Part shown: piece after piece, positions 6,052-55,535 of the stretch
Numbering within the stretch: the stretch's first letter is position 1
Layout of the letters: each line of letters starts with the position of its first letter
Assembly (NCBI RefSeq): GCF_988243305.1
Contig: NZ_OZ547136.1
Length of the DNA: 64,000 bases
Direction: 5' to 3' (one strand)
Notes under the pieces: generated by a model
Seen by the model: only the letters and a program-made list of their open reading frames with translations
Database searches by the model: none
What the model was told of the DNA's origin: nothing
Position numbers and translations under genes: made by a program

Positions 6052-6155
6052 GCCTGATGCGCTACGCTTATCAGGCCTACGTGGTTTATGCAATATATTG
6101 AATTTGCATGATTTTGTAGACCAATAAGACGTTCACGTCGCATCCGGCATGGACA
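6052..6155. repeat. REP (repetitive extragenic palindromic) elements
   Basis: gcctgatgcgctacgcttatcaggcctac and gacgttcacgtcgcatccggcatgg resemble the E. coli REP consensus. Confidence 0.7.
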
Positions 6156-8914: not shown

Positions 8915-9487
8915 TCACTGATAGTCTATATCAAAGTACAATAGTGCGTTCGCCTGTCCCGCATGTACGTTTTGCTGAGTTGACTTATAGCGGAGTTTAA
9001 AGGTTAAACTGGCATCGCCATTATTATTTAAAATTAACTCTTTGAATCCTGACTCACTATTAATTGCTATAATTTTATCATTACTGTCTAAAATTTCGAT
9101 GCCCACTCCAGTTGCACTATCCGCGCTGGAAGTAAGGCGTAATAAAGTGGTATTTATAGCATCAGCATCCCCGGTAAACTGCACATTAGCACTTACTCCT
9201 GAACTATAAACAGTACTGGTTGTTGTAGGACATCCTTCCAGATTGATCGTAAATGTATGGCTGCCAGAAACATCCCCTACATTCAAAAAATCATTGACGT
9301 CATAAGTTCCCATGTTTACTGGCTGGTCTTTACTTCCAGTTGTAATATCACACGTTTTTGCTAATAATTGTCCTGTAAATGTGACCACTACAGTATCGTT
9401 AGCCAGTGCGTTATATGAAATCACCATCATGAACAATGATCTAAACATTAATAGAATAAATTTTTGTAATATATTCATTAGCGGCAC
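8915..9487 (-). CDS. fimbrial minor subunit
   Basis: 190-aa ORF, signal peptide, C-terminal FDIDYQ pilin donor-strand-like end. Confidence 0.75.
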   Translation of the reverse strand: MPLMNILQKFILLMFRSLFMMVISYNALANDTVVVTFTGQLLAKTCDITTGSKDQPVNMGTYDVNDFLNVGDVSGSHTFTINLEGCPTTTSTVYSSGVSANVQFTGDADAINTTLLRLTSSADSATGVGIEILDSNDKIIAINSESGFKELILNNNGDASLTFKLRYKSTQQNVHAGQANALLYFDIDYQ

Positions 9488-11436
9488 TCCAGATTTGCAT
9501 AGCTAATGGCATTATCCAGTTCGCTTTTCGGTAATTGATAACTTGCCCGACATTGCTGATAAGCACTTTCTCCCCACTGTATATTTATTATGCCTTGTAA
9601 AGGCAAACCGGAGAGATAAACCTGCCCACTGTCACCCACTATTCCTGTAATCTGAGTTGTCCCCTCAGTGGGTACACTGACCGTCGCACCAAATGGAACT
9701 GGTTTATTACGATAGTGAACATTAAATAAACCTCGAATACCGACATGTGCATTAAACTCAGCACGAACTAAAGCACCTTTGCTGGGTATCACTTCCATAG
9801 TAGTAGCATCTAATTCTGTATGCATACTCATAGACATAGGGTCTAAAGAGATATTATTACGCCGATATTCCGTGGCATAAGGTACGACAGCATAGCCACG
9901 CCAGTCTGTTTTAACCCCCGTTCCGCGTTCCACATTTACATTGTTTGCCCCAGGTGCTTTTATCAGTATATTTGTTTCACCTAACGGCTGACTTAGCGTG
10001 AGACCATTTTCGTGAACAACCAGGGCCCCACTTAAACCATAGTTAAATTGCTGGTTACCATTATTATCGTAGCTGTATCCAGAATTTAGTGAACCATATG
10101 TACCACGGTAATTTAAACCTACCGCGCCATTTTCGCCATTATTCTGGTTAGCAAAATTTTGTTGAATATTATAGTTGAGATTATGTTGTTCCAGCAGCGA
10201 TCCAGATACTCCAGCATACTGATTCACATGACCGCTATTATCCTGACTATAACCATAAGTTGCTGTCATAGAATTTGTCGCAGTACGCCCATCGACAGCT
10301 GGTGATAACCAATTGCTGATCGGCAATGAGACATTTACGGATAAGATTCTGTCCGCATCTGAACCTGGTGACTTGCTATAATTATAAGCAATATTTAAAT
10401 AAATCCCATGTACACTCGTATTATAGCCGACCTGATACAAGGTATCTTTATTATTCGTATTCCAGTAAGTTTGTTGACTTGCCGCCAAATACATAGAGCC
10501 ATATTCGCCCAATGGTTGCGATATATTTGCCTGAAACTTTCCTCTTTTGCTATAACGTAAATTATAAAAATCATTCCAGTTATAAACATAGTCTTTTTCA
10601 TTAAGGGTATCTGGATCGATAACCGTACCCGACATTTGTTTGTATGTGGTATCACTCAACGAATAAAATCCCTCCGTCGAATAGCGATAACCAATAATCT
10701 GAAAAGCCGTACCTGTCTGCACTAACGATTTTGAATATAGGAAACGGTACGATTGCCCTTGATGTTTACTGCCATCGGCAAGCGTGCTATTGGCTTGCGT
10801 TAAATCAAATGACGTCGCACCAAACATACCAAGGTTGAACCCAAGCCCGAGTGCTATTGCCCGATAATTATTTGAGTATTGCATCCCTCCGTAGGCGGTA
10901 ATATCCCAGGGTAACCCCCAAATCAAATCTCCTTGAAAGACATTCGGACTGTTTTGATTATAGCTATTGCTACGATATTTACCGGCAGTTGCCGAATATT
11001 TAATATGCCCTTCGCGTTGAAGAATGGGAACAGCGGCGTAAGGAATAGTATAGATAGTTTCGGAATTATCAGACTCTTTGATCGTAACTTCCAAATCCCC
11101 AGCGGAAGACGTAGGGTTCAGATCGTTGATTTCAAAGGGTCCCGGTGGAGTATATGTCTGATAAATAACATAGCCATTTTGTTTGATCGTTACCTGAGCA
11201 TTGCTTTTAGCAATACCGCGCACAGTGGGGGCAAAACCACTTTGGCTATCGGGTAGCATGTTTTCATCGGATTCAAGTTTAGCACCACGAATACTCACAC
11301 TGTCGAAAACATCCGATGAAGACCAGGTACTGATGAATCCCCTAATGATTTTGGTAAAAATCATTAAGTTAAGGTAGATACACATCTTGTCATATGATCA
11401 AATGGTTTCGCCAAAAATCAATAATCAGACAACAAG

Positions 11437-33494: not shown

Positions 33495-33614
33495 GATTTC
33501 GTCCTTTTTAAGGTGGTTATTTACACCTTAGCGCAAAGCGGACGTGGTTCCTACTGGAGTGCGCATAACGAACACAAGCACTTCCCGTGGATAAATTGAA
33601 AACGAAAGATCAAA

Positions 33615-33706
33615 AAAAAAGCCAGCACCCGGCTGGCTAAGTAATACTGGAAGCAATGTGAGCAATGTCGTGCTTTCAGGTTCTCCGCGAGGGTCTTCCT
33701 GATCGC
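33615..33706 (-). ncRNA. ryhB: RyhB small RNA (Fur-repressed iron-sparing sRNA)
   Basis: Minus strand reads gcgatcaggaagaccctcgcggagaacctgaaagcacgacattgctcacattgcttccagtattacttagccagccgggtgctggctttt: terminator hairpin plus U-run, at the expected yhhX-yhhY position. Confidence 0.9.
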
Positions 33707-48169: not shown

Positions 48170-49092
48170 ACTTTCTCTACCTCCGGGCGACCCAGAATAC
48201 CGGTCGGCATCACCAGCAACACAAGAATCAGCAGGGCGAATGAGACCACATCTTTATATTCCGTACTCAGATAGGCAGAAGAGAGCGCCTCCGCAATCCC
48301 CAGGATCAGCCCGCCAATCATCGCTCCCGGAATGCTGCCAATCCCACCGAGCACCGCAGCGGTAAAGGCTTTCATCCCGGCCATAAAGCCGATGTAGGGG
48401 TTAATGACGCCGTAGAACTGACCGAGTAGCACACCCGCCACCGCCGCCATCGCCGCGCCAATCACAAAGGTCAGCGCAATCACCCGATCGGTGTTGATGC
48501 CAAGCAGGCTCGCCATTTTCAGATCTTCCGCGCAGGCACGGCAGGCGCGCCCCATACGGGAATAGCGAATGAAAATCGTCAGCGCCAGCATGGCGAGGAA
48601 AGTAACAATCCATATCACCGCCTGCATGGTGGTAATAGAGGCAGAGAAGTTTTCGCTATGGCCCACCACCCACTGACCGTTAAACAGACTGGGCAGCGCC
48701 ACGTCGCGCGAACCTTCGGTCAGACTGACATAGTTTTGCAGGAAGATGGACATGCCGATTGCGGAAATGAGCGCAATCAGGCGCTTAGAGTTACGCACCG
48801 GGCGATAGGCCACCCGTTCGATACTCCAGCCGTAGGCGCTGGCAATGACGATTGCGCCGACGAATCCCGCCGCCACCAGTAGCCAGCCGGTATCAATGCC
48901 CAGCATCATCAGTGCGGCGATGATCATAAAGGAGACATAGCTACCAATCATATAAACCTCGCCGTGGGCGAAGTTGATCATGCCGATAATGCCGTAAACC
49001 ATGGTGTAGCCGATGGCTATCAGCGCGTAGGTACTGCCCAGCGTGACGCCGTTAAACATCTGCTGCAAGAAATACAAAAACTGCTCAGACAT
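48166..49092 (-). CDS. livH: branched-chain amino acid ABC transporter permease LivH
   Basis: 308-aa membrane ORF. Confidence 0.9.
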
Positions 49093-49139
49093 AAGGTAAC
49101 CTTTCTAAACCCGCCCGTTTTTCACGGGCGGTGGGATGA

Positions 49140-50249
49140 TCACTTGGCTGCCGTGGATGAACCGTCGGCGTGCCACTGGAAGACACCAAAATCAAATCCC
49201 TTAAGATCGCCTTTTTCATCCCAGTTCAGCGGCCCAATCACGGTGTTCGCACCGTTAGCTTTTAAATCTTTCACCAGTGCCAGCGGCTCATCGCTGCCGG
49301 TACGCTCAAGGGCAGTCGCCAGAGATTGCACCGCCGCGTAAGTGATCCAGACATAAGGCCCGGACGGATCTTTCTTGTCTGCTTTCAACGCATCAACAAT
49401 GCCCTGGTTTGCCGGATCCTGGTCATAGCGTTTTGGCATAGTGACCAACATGCCTTCGGCAGCATCGCCAGCAATATTCGACAACGACGCATTACCCACA
49501 CCTTCCGGCCCCATAAACTGAGTTTTCAGGCCAACGGAACGGGCCTGGCGCAGCATCTGCCCCATTTCCGGGTAGTAACCGCCGTAGTAAACGAAGTCGA
49601 TGTTTTCTTTTTTCAGGCGGGCGATCAGCGCGGAGAAATCTTTCTCCCCGGCGGTAATACCGTCGAAGAAAACGACGTTGGCATTGGCTGCTTTCAATCC
49701 GTCCTGCACCGAACGCGCCAGCCCTTCACCATACTGTTGTTTGTCGTGAATGATCGCGATGCGCTGGGGCTTCACCGTCTCAAGAATGTATTTTGCCGCC
49801 GTTGGCCCCTGGGAAGAGTCCAGCCCGGCAGTGCGCATGATGTGTTGATAACCGCGTTGGGTCAGCTCCGGGTTGGTCGCTCCCGGCGAGATCATCAGAA
49901 TACCTTCGTCTTCGTAGATATCTGAAGCAGGCTGGGTAGAGGAGGAACACAGATGGCCGATGACGTATTTAATGCCGTCGTTAACGATTTTGTTGGCGAC
50001 CGCAACGGCTTGTTTCGGATCGCAGGCGTCGTCATATTCCACGCCCACCAGCTTATCGCCCTTAATTCCCCCTTTGGCATTAATGTCTTTAATGGCCTGA
50101 CGCGCGCCGTTAAATTCCATATCGCCCCACTGAGCAATCGGACCGGACATCGCGCCGACAACGGCAACTTTAATATCATCGGCTAAAGCGGTGTGTGAAA
50201 TTGCCAGTGCAATCATCCCTGCGATGATAGTTTTCGCATTCCGTTTCAT
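49140..50249 (-). CDS. livK: leucine-specific periplasmic binding protein LivK
   Basis: ORF 49140..50303; start trimmed to [23 protein letters not shown] giving 369 aa. Confidence 0.9.
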
Positions 50250-50672
50250 AGTCAAAAATCCCCACTCGTAATGTTGTGTTGCTTTGTTTTTATGTGTTAA
50301 CAAATCAGGCTGTTCTTTTTTTATACTGCGCTGTTTTTACCTGTCTGATTAAGGGTTTAGCGCAGTATTTTGTGATAATAGCGATTAAAATCCCTATTTT
50401 TCAGTCGATTAAGAACAGATAATATTCTGAATTAATTGATAGATAAACAGAAAAAAGCACCGTTGTCAGCATAAAATAACGGAACAAAGGGCAGAATAAT
50501 TCACTACCATTCAGGGGATTATGCTGGACATTTTTCATTCTCTAATGTTTTAACTTTGTAATTATTGCTGAAAAAAAATTAATCACCTGCCAAAAGAAAT
50601 AAAAAAGAGAAAGCCTCCGATTAAATTATTTCGCTACACTGGTTCCTCTTTTGTGATTTACACGGGTTACCC

Positions 50673-51056
50673 ATGAAGCTGACCATCATTCGATTAGAAA
50701 ACTTTAGCGACCAGGACCGGATTGACCTGCAAAAGATCTGGCCGGAGTATTCCCCTTCCTCTTTACAGGTTGACGATAACCACCGTATCTACGCCGCGCG
50801 TTTTAACGAGCGCCTCCTAGCGGCCGTGCGGGTAACCTTAAGCGGCACCGAGGGGGCACTGGATTCTCTACGTGTGCGGGAAGTCACCCGCCGTCGCGGT
50901 GTGGGGCAATATCTGCTGGAAGAGGTTTTGCGTACCAATCCTGGCGTTTTAGGCTGGTGGATGGCGGATGCTGGCGTGGAAGATCGCGGTGTGATGACGG
51001 CGTTTATGCAGGCGCTGGGGTTTACGGCACAACAGGGCGGCTGGGAGAAGCGTTAA
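50673..51056 (+). CDS. panM: PanD maturation factor PanM (PanZ), GNAT fold
   Basis: 127-aa ORF MKLTIIRLENFSDQDRIDLQKIWPEY. Confidence 0.85.
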   Translation: MKLTIIRLENFSDQDRIDLQKIWPEYSPSSLQVDDNHRIYAARFNERLLAAVRVTLSGTEGALDSLRVREVTRRRGVGQYLLEEVLRTNPGVLGWWMADAGVEDRGVMTAFMQALGFTAQQGGWEKR

Positions 51057-51580
51057 TCGCTCTGTGTAAAAAGCAGTTCAATGGATTTGGTTGGGAAAAA
51101 TAACGCATTTTCGTTTTCTCCGACCAGCGGGATAAAGCCCAGCGACTGATAAAACGTATGGGCTTTTTCATTCAGCGCCTCGACAAAAAGACCGTGAATA
51201 CCTACCGCTAAAGAGGCTGACCAGACGACTTTCATGGCATGAGCAACCAGTGTTGCTCCCCATCCCTGTCCCTGTAATGAACGATCAATTGCCAGACGCC
51301 CAAGAGTGACGCTGGGAATATTTTTGTAGGGAATTTTTTTCTGTTTCGATTTCGAGGGCAATGCGGCTCGTTCAAAACAACTGCCGGATAATGTGTAATA
51401 TCCCAGGACCTGACGTTCTGGAGTGTTGCGACAAAGGATATACGCTCGCAGAATTTTATTGCGATGTTGACGAATCAGATGTGCCGTCAGAAAGAGATTT
51501 AACGCTTCCTCGCCGCAGTCGAATCGCTGTAGATCATAATCTGCATCATCGGTCAGAATCTCTATCGTCAGATCATCCAT
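51053..51580 (-). CDS. GNAT-family acetyltransferase toxin (TacT/AtaT/ItaT-like)
   Basis: 175-aa ORF with an acetyl-CoA-binding-like QGQGWGATLV motif, immediately downstream of a small RHH-type ORF. Confidence 0.7.
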   Translation of the reverse strand: MDDLTIEILTDDADYDLQRFDCGEEALNLFLTAHLIRQHRNKILRAYILCRNTPERQVLGYYTLSGSCFERAALPSKSKQKKIPYKNIPSVTLGRLAIDRSLQGQGWGATLVAHAMKVVWSASLAVGIHGLFVEALNEKAHTFYQSLGFIPLVGENENALFFPTKSIELLFTQSD

Positions 51581-51586
51581 AAATGA

Positions 51587-51853
51587 TTACATTCCCTGAA
51601 GACGTTTTGTCGCACGTTTTAGCTTTTCACCTGGCGACGGTGGATTACTCAGCGCATCCATCACCCGCGTCCAGGATTCCTCATTGAGGATCACCCGCCG
51701 ATGCTGTTCAATCACTTCCGCAGCCCGCTGCGAAGCGCTGTTCAACATAAATTGGCTGACGGACTGATTAGATATCGCTGCCGCTTCCTCAATCATACTT
51801 TTGTCATCGTCAGTTAAACGCAGATCGATACGCTGCTTTTTAACAGCAGACAT
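51587..51853 (-). CDS. DUF1778-like RHH antitoxin (TacA/AtaR-like)
   Basis: 88-aa ORF MSAVKKQRIDLRLTDDDKSMIEEAAAISNQSVSQFML, ribbon-helix-helix-like N-terminus; 6 bp upstream of the GNAT gene. Confidence 0.7.
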   Translation of the reverse strand: MSAVKKQRIDLRLTDDDKSMIEEAAAISNQSVSQFMLNSASQRAAEVIEQHRRVILNEESWTRVMDALSNPPSPGEKLKRATKRLQGM

Positions 51854-51868
51854 GTGAACTCTCCTGCT

Positions 51869-51899
51869 CCGTATAATATGTACGGCATATCACCGTACA
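51869..51899 (-). promoter_or_regulatory. putative operator/promoter of the toxin-antitoxin pair
   Basis: Overlapping inverted repeats ccgtata-at-atgtacgg and tgtacgg-catatca-ccgtaca directly upstream of the antitoxin start, overlapping a -10-like tattat on the coding strand. Confidence 0.45.
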
Positions 51900-51950
51900 A
51901 TAAGCATATCCTGGATTGTTTAATCTTTCTACAACCATTTCGACAAACAC

Positions 51951-51982
51951 AAAAAAACCCGATGGACGTTAAGCGCATCGGG
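51951..51982 (-). terminator. rho-independent terminator after livJ
   Basis: Hairpin cccgatg-gacgttaagcg-catcggg followed on the minus strand by a run of 7 T, about 20 bp after the livJ stop. Confidence 0.75.
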
Positions 51983-52002
51983 CATTTTCATTTATCTATC
52001 TG

Positions 52003-53106
52003 TTACTTCGCATCTGTCGCCGTGCCGTTGGCGTGCCAGTCAAATACGCCGAACTCAAAGCCTTTCAGATCGCCTTTCTCATCCCACGTCAGCGGCCCCA
52101 TCACCGTATCAACCGAGTTTGCTTTCAGGTATTTGGCGATCTCCGCCGGATCGTCAGACTGATTCAGCCCCGCCTGCAAAGATTGCAGCGCCGCGTAGGT
52201 GGTCCAGACGAATGCGCCGCTTGGATCTTGTTTTTTCGCTTTGATCGCGTCAACAATCGGTTTGTTCGCCGGAACCTGATCGTAGTTCTTCGGCTTGGTC
52301 ACCAGCAGTCCTTCCGCTGACTCGCCCGCGATATTAGACAGCGAGACGTTAGCCACACCTTCCGGCCCCATAAACTGAGTTTTCAGCCCCGCCGCGCGCG
52401 CCTGACGCAGGATCTGCCCCATTTCCGGGTGATAACCGCCGTAGTAAACGAAGTCGATATTCTCTTTCTTCAGGCGTGCCACCAGCGTCGAGAAATCTTT
52501 TTCCCCGGCGGTGATGCCATCAAAGAACACTACGTTAGCATTGCCTTTCTTCAGGCCGTCCTGCACCGCACGCGCCAGACCTTCGCCGTACTGTTGTTTG
52601 TCGTGAACGATAGCAATACGCTGCGGTTTCACTTTCTCAAGAATATATTTCGCCGCCGTTGGTCCCTGGTCGGAGTCCAGGCCAGTGGTGCGCATAATCA
52701 ACTTATAGCCGCGCGCGGTCAGTTCTGGCGCGGTTGCCGCAGGGGTTATCATTAAAATGCCTTCATCTTCATAGATGTCTGACGCTGGCTGCGTTGATGA
52801 AGAACAGAGGTGACCAATCACATATTTAATGCCGTCGTTAACGACTTTGTTCGCCACCGCAACCGCCTGTTTCGGGTCACAGGCATCGTCATATTTCACG
52901 ATTTGCAGTTTGTTGCCTTTGATACCACCTTTAGCATTGATATCCGCAACCGCCTGCTCAGCACCAGTAAACTCCTGGTCACCGTACTGGGCCACCGGAC
53001 CGGACATTGCGCCCACGACCGCGACTTTAATATCTTCTGCCAGAGCCATATTGCTGAATGCCAGCGCGATACATCCTGCCAGTAACGCTTTACCCTTCAT
53101 GTTCAT
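52003..53106 (-). CDS. livJ: Leu/Ile/Val periplasmic binding protein LivJ
   Basis: ORF 52003..53163; start trimmed to [23 protein letters not shown] giving 367 aa. Confidence 0.9.
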
Positions 53107-53321
53107 CCTGAGGTTCCCCATTCTTCTGGTTATTACGTGTGTTGTGATGTTGTTGTTCAGCACTTTATTTCGTTTTATGCATAACTACCCGTGCTTTAGC
53201 AGCATACTCTGCTAAAACATACCCGATTTTTATGATATTGGAATAGCTATTTTGACAGTTTATTAACAATCTGCGTGGGGATTGGCGTTTTGCCGGAGGG
53301 GGAAACTGATTATTGCAGAGG

Positions 53322-53357
53322 CCCAAAAAACAAAAACCCCGGATTCTCATCCAGGGT
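53322..53357 (-). terminator. rho-independent terminator after rpoH
   Basis: Minus strand reads ccctggatgagaatccgggg followed by tttttgtttttt, about 20 bp after the rpoH stop. Confidence 0.7.
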
Positions 53358-53377
53358 TCTCTGCTAAGTAGCGGAAA

Positions 53378-54232
53378 TTACGCTTCAATGGCAGCGCGAA
53401 GTTTTTTCATCGCGTTCTTTTCCAGCTGGCGCACACGCTCAGCGGAAACACCGTAACGGTCAGCCAGTTCCTGCAACGTGGACTTGTTGTCTTCGTCCAG
53501 CCAGCGCGCGCGGATGATATCCTGGCTACGCTCGTCCAGACCTTGCATCGCGTCGGTCAGACGGTTTGCCGCCTGCTCTTCCCAGTTATCATCTTCAATG
53601 CCGTCAGCAAAGTTAGATGATTTATCCTGCAGATAGAGCACCGGAGCCATCGGCTGGCTATCGGAATCGTCGTCGGAAGACAGGTCAAAGGTCATGTCCT
53701 GTGCCGCCATACGCGATTCCATCTCAAGTACGTCTTTGCTGGTTACGCCCAGTTCACGGGCCACCATTTCGACTTCATCCTGGTTAAACCAGCCCAGACG
53801 CTGCTTGGTTTTACGCAGGTTGAAGAACAGTTTGCGCTGCGCTTTGGTGGTCGCAACTTTGACGATACGCCAGTTACGCAGAACGTATTCGTGGATCTCT
53901 GCTTTGATCCAGTGGACGGCGAAGGAGACCAGGCGCACACCCACTTCCGGGTTAAAACGGCGCACTGCTTTCATCAGGCCGATGTTACCTTCCTGAATCA
54001 AATCCGCCTGTGGCAGGCCATAGCCCGCATAATTACGAGCAATATGAACAACAAACCGCAGGTGAGACAGGATCAGCGTTTTAGCTGCTTCCAGATCGCC
54101 ATGGTAATGCAGCTTTTCAGCCAGCGCCCGCTCCTCGTCAGCCGACAACATCGGCCACGCGTTAGCTGCCCGGATGTAAGAATCCAGGTTGCCAACTGGG
54201 GCTAAAGCTAAACTTTGCATTTTGTCAGTCAT
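53378..54232 (-). CDS. rpoH: RNA polymerase sigma-32 (heat-shock sigma factor) RpoH
   Basis: 284-aa [32 protein letters not shown]. Confidence 0.95.
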
Positions 54233-54325
54233 TCAAATCCTCTCAATCGATATCTTCTGGCGCTTCAGTGGTAGCAACAACTGTGCCAGAGCTTAAGAGC
54301 AACGAGGTTATCATTCACTGTTTTA

Positions 54326-54352
54326 TCAGACCGTGATTTTATCCACAAGTTC
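54326..54352 (-). promoter_or_regulatory. sigma-E (sigma-24) dependent promoter of rpoH
   Basis: Minus strand reads GAACTT-N16-TCTGA (plus strand tcaga ... aagttc), about 90 bp upstream of the rpoH start. Confidence 0.75.
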
Positions 54353-54476
54353 AATGCAAGCTTGTGAATAAATTACGCACAAAATGTGACATAGAGATGA
54401 AATACCGGGAAGAGACAACGGGGTCTCTTTCCCTGCTACGGAACCCATTGCAGGGAAAGAGTATAACACGCTTTTA

Positions 54477-55535
54477 TTATTCAGGCGTAAAGTGGCGTAA
54501 ATGTTGTACCGTGGCAAGCCACGCTGCCACCCAGCCAATCATCGAGCATACCAGCAGCAACAGCAGGCATTCATCGAACGATAAGCCATTGATATCAAAC
54601 TTCGTTCCGAAAACCTGTGCCACTTCTGCAACCGCCGATGACAAACGCAGTACCAGAATTTCTGACAAAATTAATGACAGCAATGCGCCAGAAAATCCCA
54701 GCAATGCGCCTCCGTACAGGAACGGGCGCAGGATGAAACCATCCGTCGCACCAATCAGTTTTTGTACGTTAATGGAGTCACGGCGAGCAAAGATGCTCAG
54801 ACGCACACTGTTGCCGATGACGAGGAACACTGCTGCCACCATCAACACGCCGATCATCGCGGAAACGCGCCCGACCAGCCCGGTCAACGCCGCCAGACGG
54901 GCAAACCAGCTGTCATCCATCCGCACTTCGTCAATGCCGTTGATCTGGGTGATACGATCACGCAGCGTATTCAGTGATTCCGTCCCCTGAAAATCGAGTT
55001 TCGGGATCACCACCGCCACTGCCGGAAGCGGGTTTTCTTCCAGCATATCCAGCGCGCCGCCAAAACCAGACCAGTTACGGAACTCGCCCAGCGCGTCTTC
55101 ACGAGAAAGATAGTTCACTTTCTCTACGCCCTGCTCGGCCTGTAGCTGTGCCACCACGCCCGCAGCGGCGTCATCGTCCAGCGTTTTTTGCAGATAAACA
55201 GTGATTTGCGGTGACGGATAATACTGCGTCGCCGCCTGGTTAACGTTTTTGTACACCATATAACAGACGCTGGGCAGCGTCAGGGAGATGGCGATAACCA
55301 TCACCGTTAAAAACGTGGCGAACGGTTTGCTTTTCAGATCCTGCAATGCGCCGTGGAAGGCATAGCGCACCTGTTCGTTGAAAACGTTGGTTTTGCGATT
55401 TACCGGTTTTGGCGAGGATTTCGCGCGTTTCGGTGCGTTACGACCGCCGTCGCCTGAGCCGCCGACCGATTTACGGAAGCGATCCAGACGCCCGCCAAAC
55501 TGCCGAATATGATTGATTGCATCGCGCTTATTCAT
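54477..55535 (-). CDS. ftsX: cell division ABC-transporter-like permease FtsX
   Basis: ORF 54477..55562; start trimmed to [15 protein letters not shown] giving 352 aa. Confidence 0.9.

What the first reader, a model, noticed from the sequence alone, without database searches (positions are those of the whole stretch)
51053..51899. GNAT-toxin / RHH-antitoxin type II TA module between panM and livJ
An 88-aa RHH/DUF1778-like ORF is followed 6 bp later by a 175-aa GNAT acetyltransferase. This is the architecture of the aminoacyl-tRNA-acetylating TacT/AtaT/ItaT toxins and their antitoxins. Overlapping inverted repeats upstream look like an autoregulatory operator. From memory it is absent from K-12 at this site, and its 3' end is convergent with panM.
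Basis: partly seen in the sequence, partly recalled or inferred. Interest (0 to 1): 0.55.

Follow-up and report, generated by a model that had tools for sequence, protein, structure and literature searches.

The report
Known AtaR–AtaT toxin–antitoxin module

Summary
An 88-aa ORF (51587-51853, minus strand) is followed 6 bp later by a 175-aa ORF (51053-51580, minus strand). A perfect inverted repeat, TGTACGG-N7-CCGTACA (51879-51899), lies upstream. The pair sits between panM and livJ, and K-12 lacks it at this site.

It is not merely AtaT-like: it is AtaR–AtaT itself. The toxin is 171/175 identical to crystallised EHEC AtaT (PDB 6GTS, 6AJM). The antitoxin is 87/88 identical to crystallised AtaR. 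Every residue shown by mutagenesis to matter is kept: Y144, G108, the tRNA-binding basic residues and the aminoacyl pocket. The repeat arms and spacing match the operator co-crystallised with the Klebsiella homologue KacAT.

RefSeq annotates ataT and ataR at this same site in 1625 of 5426 complete E. coli genomes. All are chromosomal and single copy. In K-12 a 187-bp intergenic region that I read as REP elements takes its place.

Mechanism, from the literature: AtaT dimers acetylate the α-amino group of aminoacyl-tRNAs. AtaR holds AtaT monomeric, and the AtaT-AtaR4-AtaT hexamer represses the operon.

Verdict: already known, low interest. The only local features are two rare conservative substitutions in helix α1 (T33A, V36I) and a terminator-less 4-bp convergent overlap with panM.

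The parts
51587..51853 (-). ataR: 88-aa ribbon-helix-helix / DUF1778 (TacA1) antitoxin and operator-binding repressor
   Evidence: ORF. It is 87/88 identical to AtaR chains of PDB 6AJM/6GTO/6GTS, E=2.3e-51, with the single change A82T. Pfam PF08681, E=3.5e-25. R8, D10 and R12 are present; these are the DNA-contacting beta-strand residues defined in the homologue KacA (PMC6698736).
51053..51580 (-). ataT: 175-aa GNAT aminoacyl-tRNA N-acetyltransferase toxin
   Evidence: ORF. It is 171/175 identical to AtaT (PDB 6GTS_A), E=2.1e-114. The differences from O157 are T33A, V36I, C65S and K145Q. A26, L27, F30, H34, R37, R40, R71, S76, K77, S78, K79, K81, K82, Y85, R95, G108, L136 and Y144 are all conserved (residue list from PMC7595197). 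Against O157 there are 8 synonymous and 4 non-synonymous codon differences.
51581..51586 (-). 6-nt intercistronic gap between the ataR stop and the ataT start; suggests translational coupling (inferred)
   Evidence: Read directly from the sequence...ATG TAA TCATTT ATG GAT GAT on the minus strand.
51879..51899 (.). Operator palindrome TGTACGG-N7-CCGTACA upstream of ataR
   Evidence: perfect 7-nt arms, unique in the window, 0 of 100 shuffles. The arms are identical in O157:H7 and JJ1887, and only spacer bases vary. The arms and the 7-nt spacing equal the 27-bp kacAT operator duplex AAATGTACGGTTATTAACCGTACATGA crystallised with KacA4KacT2 (PMC6698736).
51869..51885 (.). Second, overlapping short inverted repeat CCGTA-N7-TACGG. 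It shares the middle arm and encloses TATTAT, a candidate -10 on the minus strand at 51873-51878.
   Evidence: Read from the sequence and invariant in three alleles. Function is not shown. The consensus promoter scan found no sigma-70 site here, so promoter placement is inference only.
51861..51865 (-). Shine-Dalgarno AGGAG, 7 nt upstream of the ataR ATG
   Evidence: Read from the sequence; conserved.
51952..51988 (-). livJ intrinsic terminator (CCCGATG-N11-CATCGGG followed by U7). It lies inside the strain-specific segment and insulates ataRT from livJ read-through.
   Evidence: repeat I1; folding energy -23.3 kcal/mol, z = -5.3, 0 of 200 shuffles as stable. The hairpin arms and the T-run are conserved in O157 and JJ1887; substitutions fall in the loop and just outside the stem.
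51060..52002 (.). 943-bp strain-variable segment (ataT, ataR, operator, own livJ terminator). It replaces the 187-bp intergenic region of K-12.
   Evidence: In the window-versus-K-12 alignment, homology stops 3 bp after the panM stop (51059/51060) and resumes at the livJ stop codon, about 52003. K-12 annotation.

Best explanation
The locus is the chromosomal ataR-ataT (AtaRT) type II toxin-antitoxin operon of E. coli, in a natural allele.

Shown here by sequence:
- Both genes are intact and near-identical to the characterised proteins.
- All experimentally important residues are kept.
- The operator palindrome is present.
- The module sits at the canonical panM|livJ site.

Inferred from published work on the EHEC proteins:
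- ataR and ataT are co-transcribed from a promoter overlapping the palindrome.
- AtaR dimers (RHH fold) bind AtaT monomers through their disordered C-termini and prevent the AtaT dimerisation needed for activity.
- The AtaT-AtaR4-AtaT heterohexamer places two RHH domains on the two arms of the palindrome and represses the operon.
- Excess AtaT changes the stoichiometry and lowers operator affinity, so the operon is de-repressed.
[quoted passage not shown] These were first reported as initiator Met-tRNAfMet only. [quoted passage not shown]
- The acetylated tRNAs cannot be used in translation, so growth stops. Peptidyl-tRNA hydrolase can reverse this.
For: Identity to solved AtaT and AtaR structures: E=2e-114 with 171/175 identical, and E=2e-51 with 87/88 identical.

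Pfam gives GNAT plus TacA1/DUF1778.

All 18 residues tested by mutagenesis in PMC7595197 are conserved, as are AtaR R8/D10/R12.

Synonymous codon changes outnumber non-synonymous ones: 8:4 against O157 and 14:4 against JJ1887 for ataT. This is consistent with selection on a functional gene.

The operator arms are identical in O157 and JJ1887 and to the crystallised kacAT operator.

PGAP annotates ataT/ataR at the same site in 1625 of 5426 complete E. coli genomes.

The exact AtaT allele is listed in 614 blocks of the public assembly index. All six places shown have the rpoH-livJ-ataR-ataT-panM-livK context.

Mechanism from the literature: PMC7595197, PMC9177977, PMC8138530, PMC10135005, PMC6698736.
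Against: Nothing in the sequence argues against it. The limits are these:
- No experiment was done on this allele.
- T33A and V36I lie in tRNA-contacting helix alpha1, next to H34 and R37. K145Q lies next to catalytic Y144. Their effects are untested. S65 and Q145 also occur in the JJ1887 allele.
- The promoter could not be placed by consensus scan.
- The sequence of the AtaRT operator DNA in PDB 6GTS was not available to me. The operator match is therefore to the KacAT homologue and to conservation among alleles.
- The physiological aa-tRNA target and the biological role of AtaRT remain disputed in the literature.
Confidence: 0.95

Rival explanations
1. The module is a decayed or attenuated allele. 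Substitutions near the catalytic Tyr (K145Q) and in tRNA-binding helix alpha1 (T33A, V36I) have weakened the toxin, leaving a harmless chromosomal remnant.
For: There are four amino-acid differences from the characterised O157 protein. Two of them (A33, I36) were not seen in the two other alleles compared.
Against: Both ORFs are full length. All residues shown to matter are intact. Q145 and S65 are shared with the JJ1887 allele, so K145 and C65 are absent from two of the three alleles compared. The changes are conservative. None of the four positions is named as functional in PMC7595197. Synonymous changes predominate. The exact allele is widespread: it is listed in 614 index blocks.
Confidence: 0.04
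2. The main biological role of AtaT is protein lysine acetylation rather than growth arrest through tRNA. It has been reported to acetylate EspB K206, stabilising the type III secretion translocon and enhancing EHEC virulence.
For: PMC7957018 reports that an ataT deletion attenuates EHEC and that AtaT acetylates EspB K206.
Against: This is a single report. aa-tRNA acetylation is supported by several independent groups, including a crystal structure with acetyl-Met-tRNAfMet (PDB 7CHD; PMC7595197). The module occurs in about 30% of E. coli genomes from many hosts and sources; I did not check which of these carry EspB. No LEE or espB gene lies within this window. This would be an added function, not a replacement.
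Confidence: 0.1
3. The physiological role of the module is phage defence by abortive infection, or genomic stabilisation, rather than stress-induced persistence.
For: This is a general property shown for several other type II TA systems (established knowledge). The module is strain-variable: about 30% of genomes carry it.
Against: Neither protein hits any PADLOC defence model. No paper linking AtaRT itself to phage defence surfaced; the hits mention AtaT only in passing. The site is fixed and flanked by core genes. It shows no integrase, IS element or defence-island neighbours.
Confidence: 0.1

Closest known systems
AtaR-AtaT (AtaRT) of enterohaemorrhagic E. coli O157:H7 (PDB 6GTS, 6GTP-6GTR, 6AJM, 6AJN, 7CHD)
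   Same: Same genes at the same locus (panM|livJ). AtaT is 171/175 identical and AtaR 87/88. The gene order, the 6-bp gap and the operator arms are the same. The catalytic Y144, the acetyl-CoA-site G108 and all tRNA-binding residues are kept.
   Different: AtaT differs by T33A, V36I, C65S and K145Q; AtaR by A82T. Two bases in the operator spacer and one flanking base differ. The flanking genes are more diverged from O157 than the module: livJ fragment 93.5% and panM 95.6%, against ataT 97.4% and ataR 99.3%.
KacA-KacT of Klebsiella pneumoniae (PDB 5ZGN, 5XUN)
   Same: Same GNAT/RHH architecture and the same T-A2-A2-T heterohexamer on a palindromic operator. The operator arms TGTACGG/CCGTACA and the 7-nt spacing are identical. 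PDB hits E=2.7e-74 for the toxin and 7e-38 for the antitoxin.
   Different: A separate orthologue: 67% (toxin) and 73% (antitoxin) identity to AtaT and AtaR according to PMC6698736. It comes from a different species and genomic context.
TacA-TacT (and TacT2, TacT3) of Salmonella Typhimurium
   Same: GNAT toxin acetylating aminoacyl-tRNA, with a DUF1778/TacA antitoxin; Pfam PF08681 is named after TacA. More distant PDB hits at E=1e-11 to 1e-21. Assigning those entries to TacT is from my own knowledge.
   Different: Distant in sequence. TacT3 is Gly-tRNAGly specific in vivo and lies in a different clade (D) from AtaT, which is in basal clade A (PMC9177977).
ItaR-ItaT and AtaR2-AtaT2 of E. coli
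   Same: GNAT/RHH type II modules of E. coli that acetylate aa-tRNA.
   Different: AtaT2 is only 29.2% identical to AtaT and is Gly-specific (PMC7470980). ItaT prefers Ile/Leu-tRNA. The weak hit 7BYY (E=3e-05) is ItaT to my knowledge. The window's protein is clearly AtaT, not either of these.

Membership tests
AtaRT (GNAT/DUF1778 type II toxin-antitoxin) | Toxin is a GNAT-fold acetyltransferase with the acetyl-CoA-binding Q/R-x-x-G-x-G/A loop and a catalytic tyrosine | tested here: met
   Pfam GNAT families match residues 92-150. The loop Q103-G-Q-G-W-G108 and Y144 are present. G108D and Y144F abolish or reduce toxicity in PMC7595197.
AtaRT (GNAT/DUF1778 type II toxin-antitoxin) | Antitoxin is a DUF1778/TacA-type ribbon-helix-helix protein encoded immediately upstream in the same operon | tested here: met
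   PF08681 E=3.5e-25. ataR lies 6 bp upstream of ataT on the same strand.
AtaRT (GNAT/DUF1778 type II toxin-antitoxin) | Orthology to the characterised EHEC AtaT and AtaR: near-identity over the full length | tested here: met
   171/175 and 87/88 identical, end to end.
AtaRT (GNAT/DUF1778 type II toxin-antitoxin) | Same chromosomal locus as in O157:H7 (between panM and livJ) | tested here: met
   O157:H7 strain 493/89 and 1600+ other genomes carry ataT/ataR annotated between panM and livJ.
AtaRT (GNAT/DUF1778 type II toxin-antitoxin) | Palindromic operator upstream of the antitoxin gene, bound by the TA complex | tested here: inconclusive
   The palindrome is present, statistically unexpected, conserved among alleles and identical in its arms to the crystallised kacAT operator. 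Binding itself was not tested.
AtaRT (GNAT/DUF1778 type II toxin-antitoxin) | tRNA-binding and aminoacyl-pocket residues of AtaT (H34, R37, R40, R71, S76-K82, Y85, R95, F30, A26, L27, L136) | tested here: met
   All are conserved (list).
AtaRT (GNAT/DUF1778 type II toxin-antitoxin) | Toxin arrests growth when expressed alone and is neutralised by the cognate antitoxin | not testable with these tools
   Shown for the O157 allele in the literature, not for this allele.
AtaRT (GNAT/DUF1778 type II toxin-antitoxin) | Acetyl-CoA-dependent N-alpha-acetylation of aminoacyl-tRNA | not testable with these tools
   Shown for the O157 allele (PMC7595197, PMC9177977).
Known anti-phage defence systems (PADLOC) | Match to a PADLOC-DB protein model | tested here: not met
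   0 families for either protein at E<=0.01.

The most novel reading that the evidence does not exclude
The convergent arrangement of ataT and panM may be functional rather than incidental. The two stop codons overlap, and I found no intrinsic terminator on either strand.

panM/panZ encodes a GNAT-fold acetyl-CoA sensor that throttles CoA biosynthesis. Its transcripts would read antisense into ataT, and ataRT transcripts would read antisense into panM. That could couple expression of an acetyl-CoA-dependent toxin to the regulator of CoA supply, through transcriptional interference or RNA duplex formation.

A lesser variant of this reading: the rare T33A/V36I pair in tRNA-contacting helix alpha1 shifts the aminoacyl-tRNA preference of this allele.
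Probability: 0.06. Interest if true: 0.45.

Novelty: already known. Interest (0 to 1): 0.08.

Why it matters
It matters little as a discovery. AtaRT has crystal structures of the free toxin, the TA complex, the TA-operator complex and the toxin-tRNA complex. It also has in vivo target profiling. NCBI's pipeline already names these genes at this site.

The value of this check is negative. It removes a 0.55-interest candidate from the list and records three facts:
- About 30% of complete E. coli genomes carry the module at one fixed site, where K-12 has a short REP-like intergenic region instead.
- This allele carries two uncommon but conservative changes in the tRNA-binding helix. They could serve as a natural variant in specificity studies.

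Tried and rejected
- NCBIfam gave only sub-threshold generic GNAT and RHH hits. PGAP presumably names these proteins by another route, so this was uninformative.
- PADLOC gave no hit, so a defence-system label was rejected.
- The consensus promoter/terminator scan of 50950-52050 found nothing. Two weak manual promoter candidates (TAGAAA-17-TATGCT and TTGTAC-17-TATTAT) are not reliable, and I did not commit to either.
- A literature search for the O157 operator sequence as a string found no paper. The primary AtaRT regulation paper (PMID 30718814) is not held.
- I looked for a plasmid origin. The closest plasmid-borne homologues are only about 69% identical, so recent plasmid acquisition of this allele was rejected.
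- I looked for mobility signatures at the segment boundaries, meaning direct repeats, IS elements or an integrase. None was seen.
- I looked for intrinsic terminators at the ataT/panM junction on both strands. No convincing hairpin followed by a U-tract was found.
- I did not run structure prediction or the large protein database searches. Solved structures at 98-99% identity make them unnecessary.

Full report
**1. Observation**

The ORF list and the sequence show an 88-aa ORF at 51587..51853 on the minus strand. Six bases later a 175-aa ORF runs 51053..51580 on the same strand.

Upstream of the first ORF, the repeat finder reports a perfect inverted repeat, TGTACGG / CCGTACA, with 7-nt arms and a 7-nt spacer, at 51879-51899. 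The pattern occurs once in the 64-kb window. It occurred in 0 of 100 dinucleotide-preserving shuffles, even with one mismatch allowed.

A second, shorter repeat, CCGTA-N7-TACGG (51869-51885), shares the middle arm.

panM (50673..51056, plus strand) converges on the 175-aa ORF. The two stop codons interlock, giving a 4-bp overlap at 51053-51056. livJ (52003..53163, minus strand) lies upstream.

**2. What it is**

A search of all PDB chains gives near-identity over the full length.
- The 175-aa protein matches AtaT (6GTS_A, 6AJM_A, 7CHD_A and others) at E = 2e-114, with 171/175 residues identical.
- The 88-aa protein matches AtaR (6AJM_C, 6GTO, 6GTS) at E = 2e-51, with 87/88 identical.
- The next relatives are KacT and KacA of Klebsiella (E = 3e-74 and 7e-38). 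More distant GNAT toxins follow.

Pfam agrees: GNAT families for the toxin and PF08681 (TacA1/DUF1778) at 3.5e-25 for the antitoxin.

In RefSeq, a 971-bp query covering the module matches 1625 of 5426 complete E. coli genomes. Of these, 1612 match over at least 80% of the query. There is always one copy, always on the chromosome, and under the matches listed the genes are annotated as "type II toxin-antitoxin system toxin acetyltransferase AtaT" and "antitoxin AtaR", between panM and livJ.

The exact AtaT sequence of the window is listed in 614 blocks of the public assembly index. All six places shown have the context rpoH-livJ-ataR-ataT-panM-livK. One draft genome matches the window with 1 mismatch over 6.5 kb.

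**3. Integrity of the allele**

Against O157:H7, AtaT differs by T33A, V36I, C65S and K145Q, and AtaR by A82T. S65 and Q145 are shared with the JJ1887 allele. Only A33 and I36 distinguish the window's allele from both others.

Yashiro et al. (PMC7595197) tested the following residues by mutagenesis or named them as contacts:
- G108 (acetyl-CoA binding) and Y144 (catalysis);
- H34, R37, R40, R71, S76, K77, S78, K79, K81, K82, Y85, R95 and F30 (tRNA binding);
- A26, L27 and L136 (aminoacyl pocket).

All 18 are conserved in the window's protein. None of the four variable positions is mentioned in that paper.

Synonymous codon differences outnumber non-synonymous ones, 8:4 against O157 and 14:4 against JJ1887 for ataT. 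That pattern is consistent with a gene under purifying selection.

AtaR keeps R8, D10 and R12. These are the beta-strand residues that read the operator bases in the homologue KacA.

**4. Operator and regulation**

On the coding strand the region reads TGTACGG-TGATATG-CCGTACA-TATTA-TACGG-AGC-AGGAG-AGTTCAC-ATG.

The arms are invariant in O157:H7 and JJ1887, and only spacer bases change. The arms and the 7-nt spacing are identical to the 27-bp kacAT operator duplex, AAATGTACGGTTATTAACCGTACATGA. That duplex was crystallised with the KacA4KacT2 hexamer (PMC6698736). The same paper states that the AtaRT hexamer binds a palindrome at its own operator (PDB 6GTS).

I could not read the 6GTS DNA sequence itself. 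A string search of the held literature found nothing, and the primary paper is not held. The operator assignment therefore rests on homology and conservation, not on a direct match.

The consensus promoter scan found no site. Promoter placement is unresolved.

The published model (PMC8138530; PMC10135005) runs as follows. AtaR alone binds DNA weakly. The AtaT-AtaR2-AtaR2-AtaT hexamer binds tightly and represses. Excess AtaT produces a complex of different stoichiometry with lower operator affinity, and this de-represses the operon.

**5. Toxic mechanism (literature, not tested here)**

AtaT is active as a dimer, and AtaR keeps it monomeric. [quoted passage not shown]

The target is disputed.
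- Initiator Met-tRNAfMet only, in vitro (Jurenas 2017, as cited).
- Gly-, Trp-, Tyr-, Phe-tRNAs and Met-tRNAfMet, selected through G-C pairs in the lower acceptor stem and through the aminoacyl side chain (PMC7595197).
- An independent in vivo profile with a bias to Gly-tRNA. That study also showed rescue by peptidyl-tRNA hydrolase, which points to elongation rather than initiation as the toxic step (PMC9177977).

One report assigns AtaT an additional protein substrate, EspB K206, in EHEC virulence (PMC7957018).

**6. The site**

Aligned to K-12 MG1655, homology stops 3 bp after the panM stop (51059/51060). It resumes at the livJ stop codon, about 52003.

K-12 has 187 bp there. From my own knowledge of the REP consensus, I read that stretch as two REP elements in inverted orientation; the tool listed no repeat features for it.

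The window has 943 bp at this position. It holds ataT, ataR, the operator and a different livJ terminator: CCCGATG-N11-CATCGGG followed by U7, at -23.3 kcal/mol with z = -5.3.

I saw no direct repeats, IS element or integrase at the boundaries. The closest plasmid-borne homologues are only about 69% identical. This looks like an old presence/absence polymorphism at a fixed core-genome site, not a recently mobile cassette.

The module is less diverged from O157 (ataR 99.3%, ataT 97.4%) than its flanks (panM 95.6%, livJ 3' part 93.5%).

**7. Comparison and membership**

All sequence-testable defining features of AtaRT are met: the GNAT toxin with its catalytic Tyr and acetyl-CoA loop, the upstream DUF1778 RHH antitoxin, near-identity to the type proteins, the same locus, and the tRNA-binding residues.

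The operator is present, but binding is untested. Toxicity, neutralisation and tRNA acetylation cannot be tested with these tools.

It is not AtaT2, which is 29% identical to AtaT. It is not ItaT or TacT either (distant hits). Neither protein matches a PADLOC defence model.

**8. Verdict**

The thing itself is already known, named and structurally solved. Interest is low (0.08).

The least ordinary residue of the analysis is the terminator-less convergent overlap of ataT with panM. panM is itself a GNAT-fold acetyl-CoA sensor (PF12568). No terminator was found on either strand. A functional antisense coupling is not excluded, but nothing here supports it beyond geometry.

Noticed in passing
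window 51053-51056 and flanks 50673-51580: The stop codons of ataT (-) and panM (+) interlock, giving a 4-bp convergent overlap. No hairpin plus U-tract terminator was found on either strand, so each transcript probably reads antisense into the other gene. The overlap is the same in O157:H7 and JJ1887. The last panM codon is CGT (Arg) in the three ataRT-bearing alleles examined, but TGT (Cys) in K-12, which lacks the module (n = 3 versus 1 only).
   Followed up: partly
window ~48998-54498: A block of about 5.5 kb (3' part of livK, panM, ataT, ataR, livJ, rpoH) has 2 mismatches to E. coli strain Z1323HEC0462. The flanking sequence differs at 2-30 sites per 500 bp. This looks like a shared recombination tract spanning the module. 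No complete genome in the collection is >=99% identical to window 39001-64000 overall. A draft genome (GCA_022410215.1) matches 6.5 kb with 1 mismatch.
   Followed up: partly
window 11329-13972: A 2.6-kb segment is absent from strain Z1323HEC0462. It holds an IS4-family (IS10-like) transposase ORF (11437-12654, +) with an RNA-OUT match (11375-11444). It also holds an IS3-family orfA/orfB pair (13423-13749 and 12536-13426, -) with the ALIL frameshift pseudoknot (13352-13468). It appears to split a fimbrial usher gene: the 635-aa ORF at 9478-11385 covers only profile positions 266-877 of the usher model. I did not check that the 250-aa ORF at 13968-14720 is the N-terminal fragment.
   Followed up: partly
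window 44548-45294 (-): A 248-aa ORF, annotated as a tetratricopeptide repeat protein in a related genome, lies between ugpB and livF. K-12 has only a 398-bp intergenic region there. This is another small strain-variable insert, 6 kb from ataRT. Its function was not examined.
   Followed up: no
window 51872-51877 (+): A perfect TATAAT hexamer lies on the plus strand inside the ataRT operator, pointing away from ataR and antisense to livJ. It is probably just the reverse reading of the AT-rich operator core. No -35 partner was found by the scan.
   Followed up: no
window 33613-33677 (-) and 6073-6115 (-): Rfam matches to the known sRNAs RyhB (83 bits) and ES036/CssrF (43.6 bits), as expected for this chromosomal region. 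Ordinary.
   Followed up: no
window 49320-50177 vs 52177-53034: livK and livJ are paralogues, about 77% identical at the DNA level, and they flank the panM-ataTR segment in direct orientation (BLAST). This is known biology. It could in principle promote recombination across the ataRT site.
   Followed up: no
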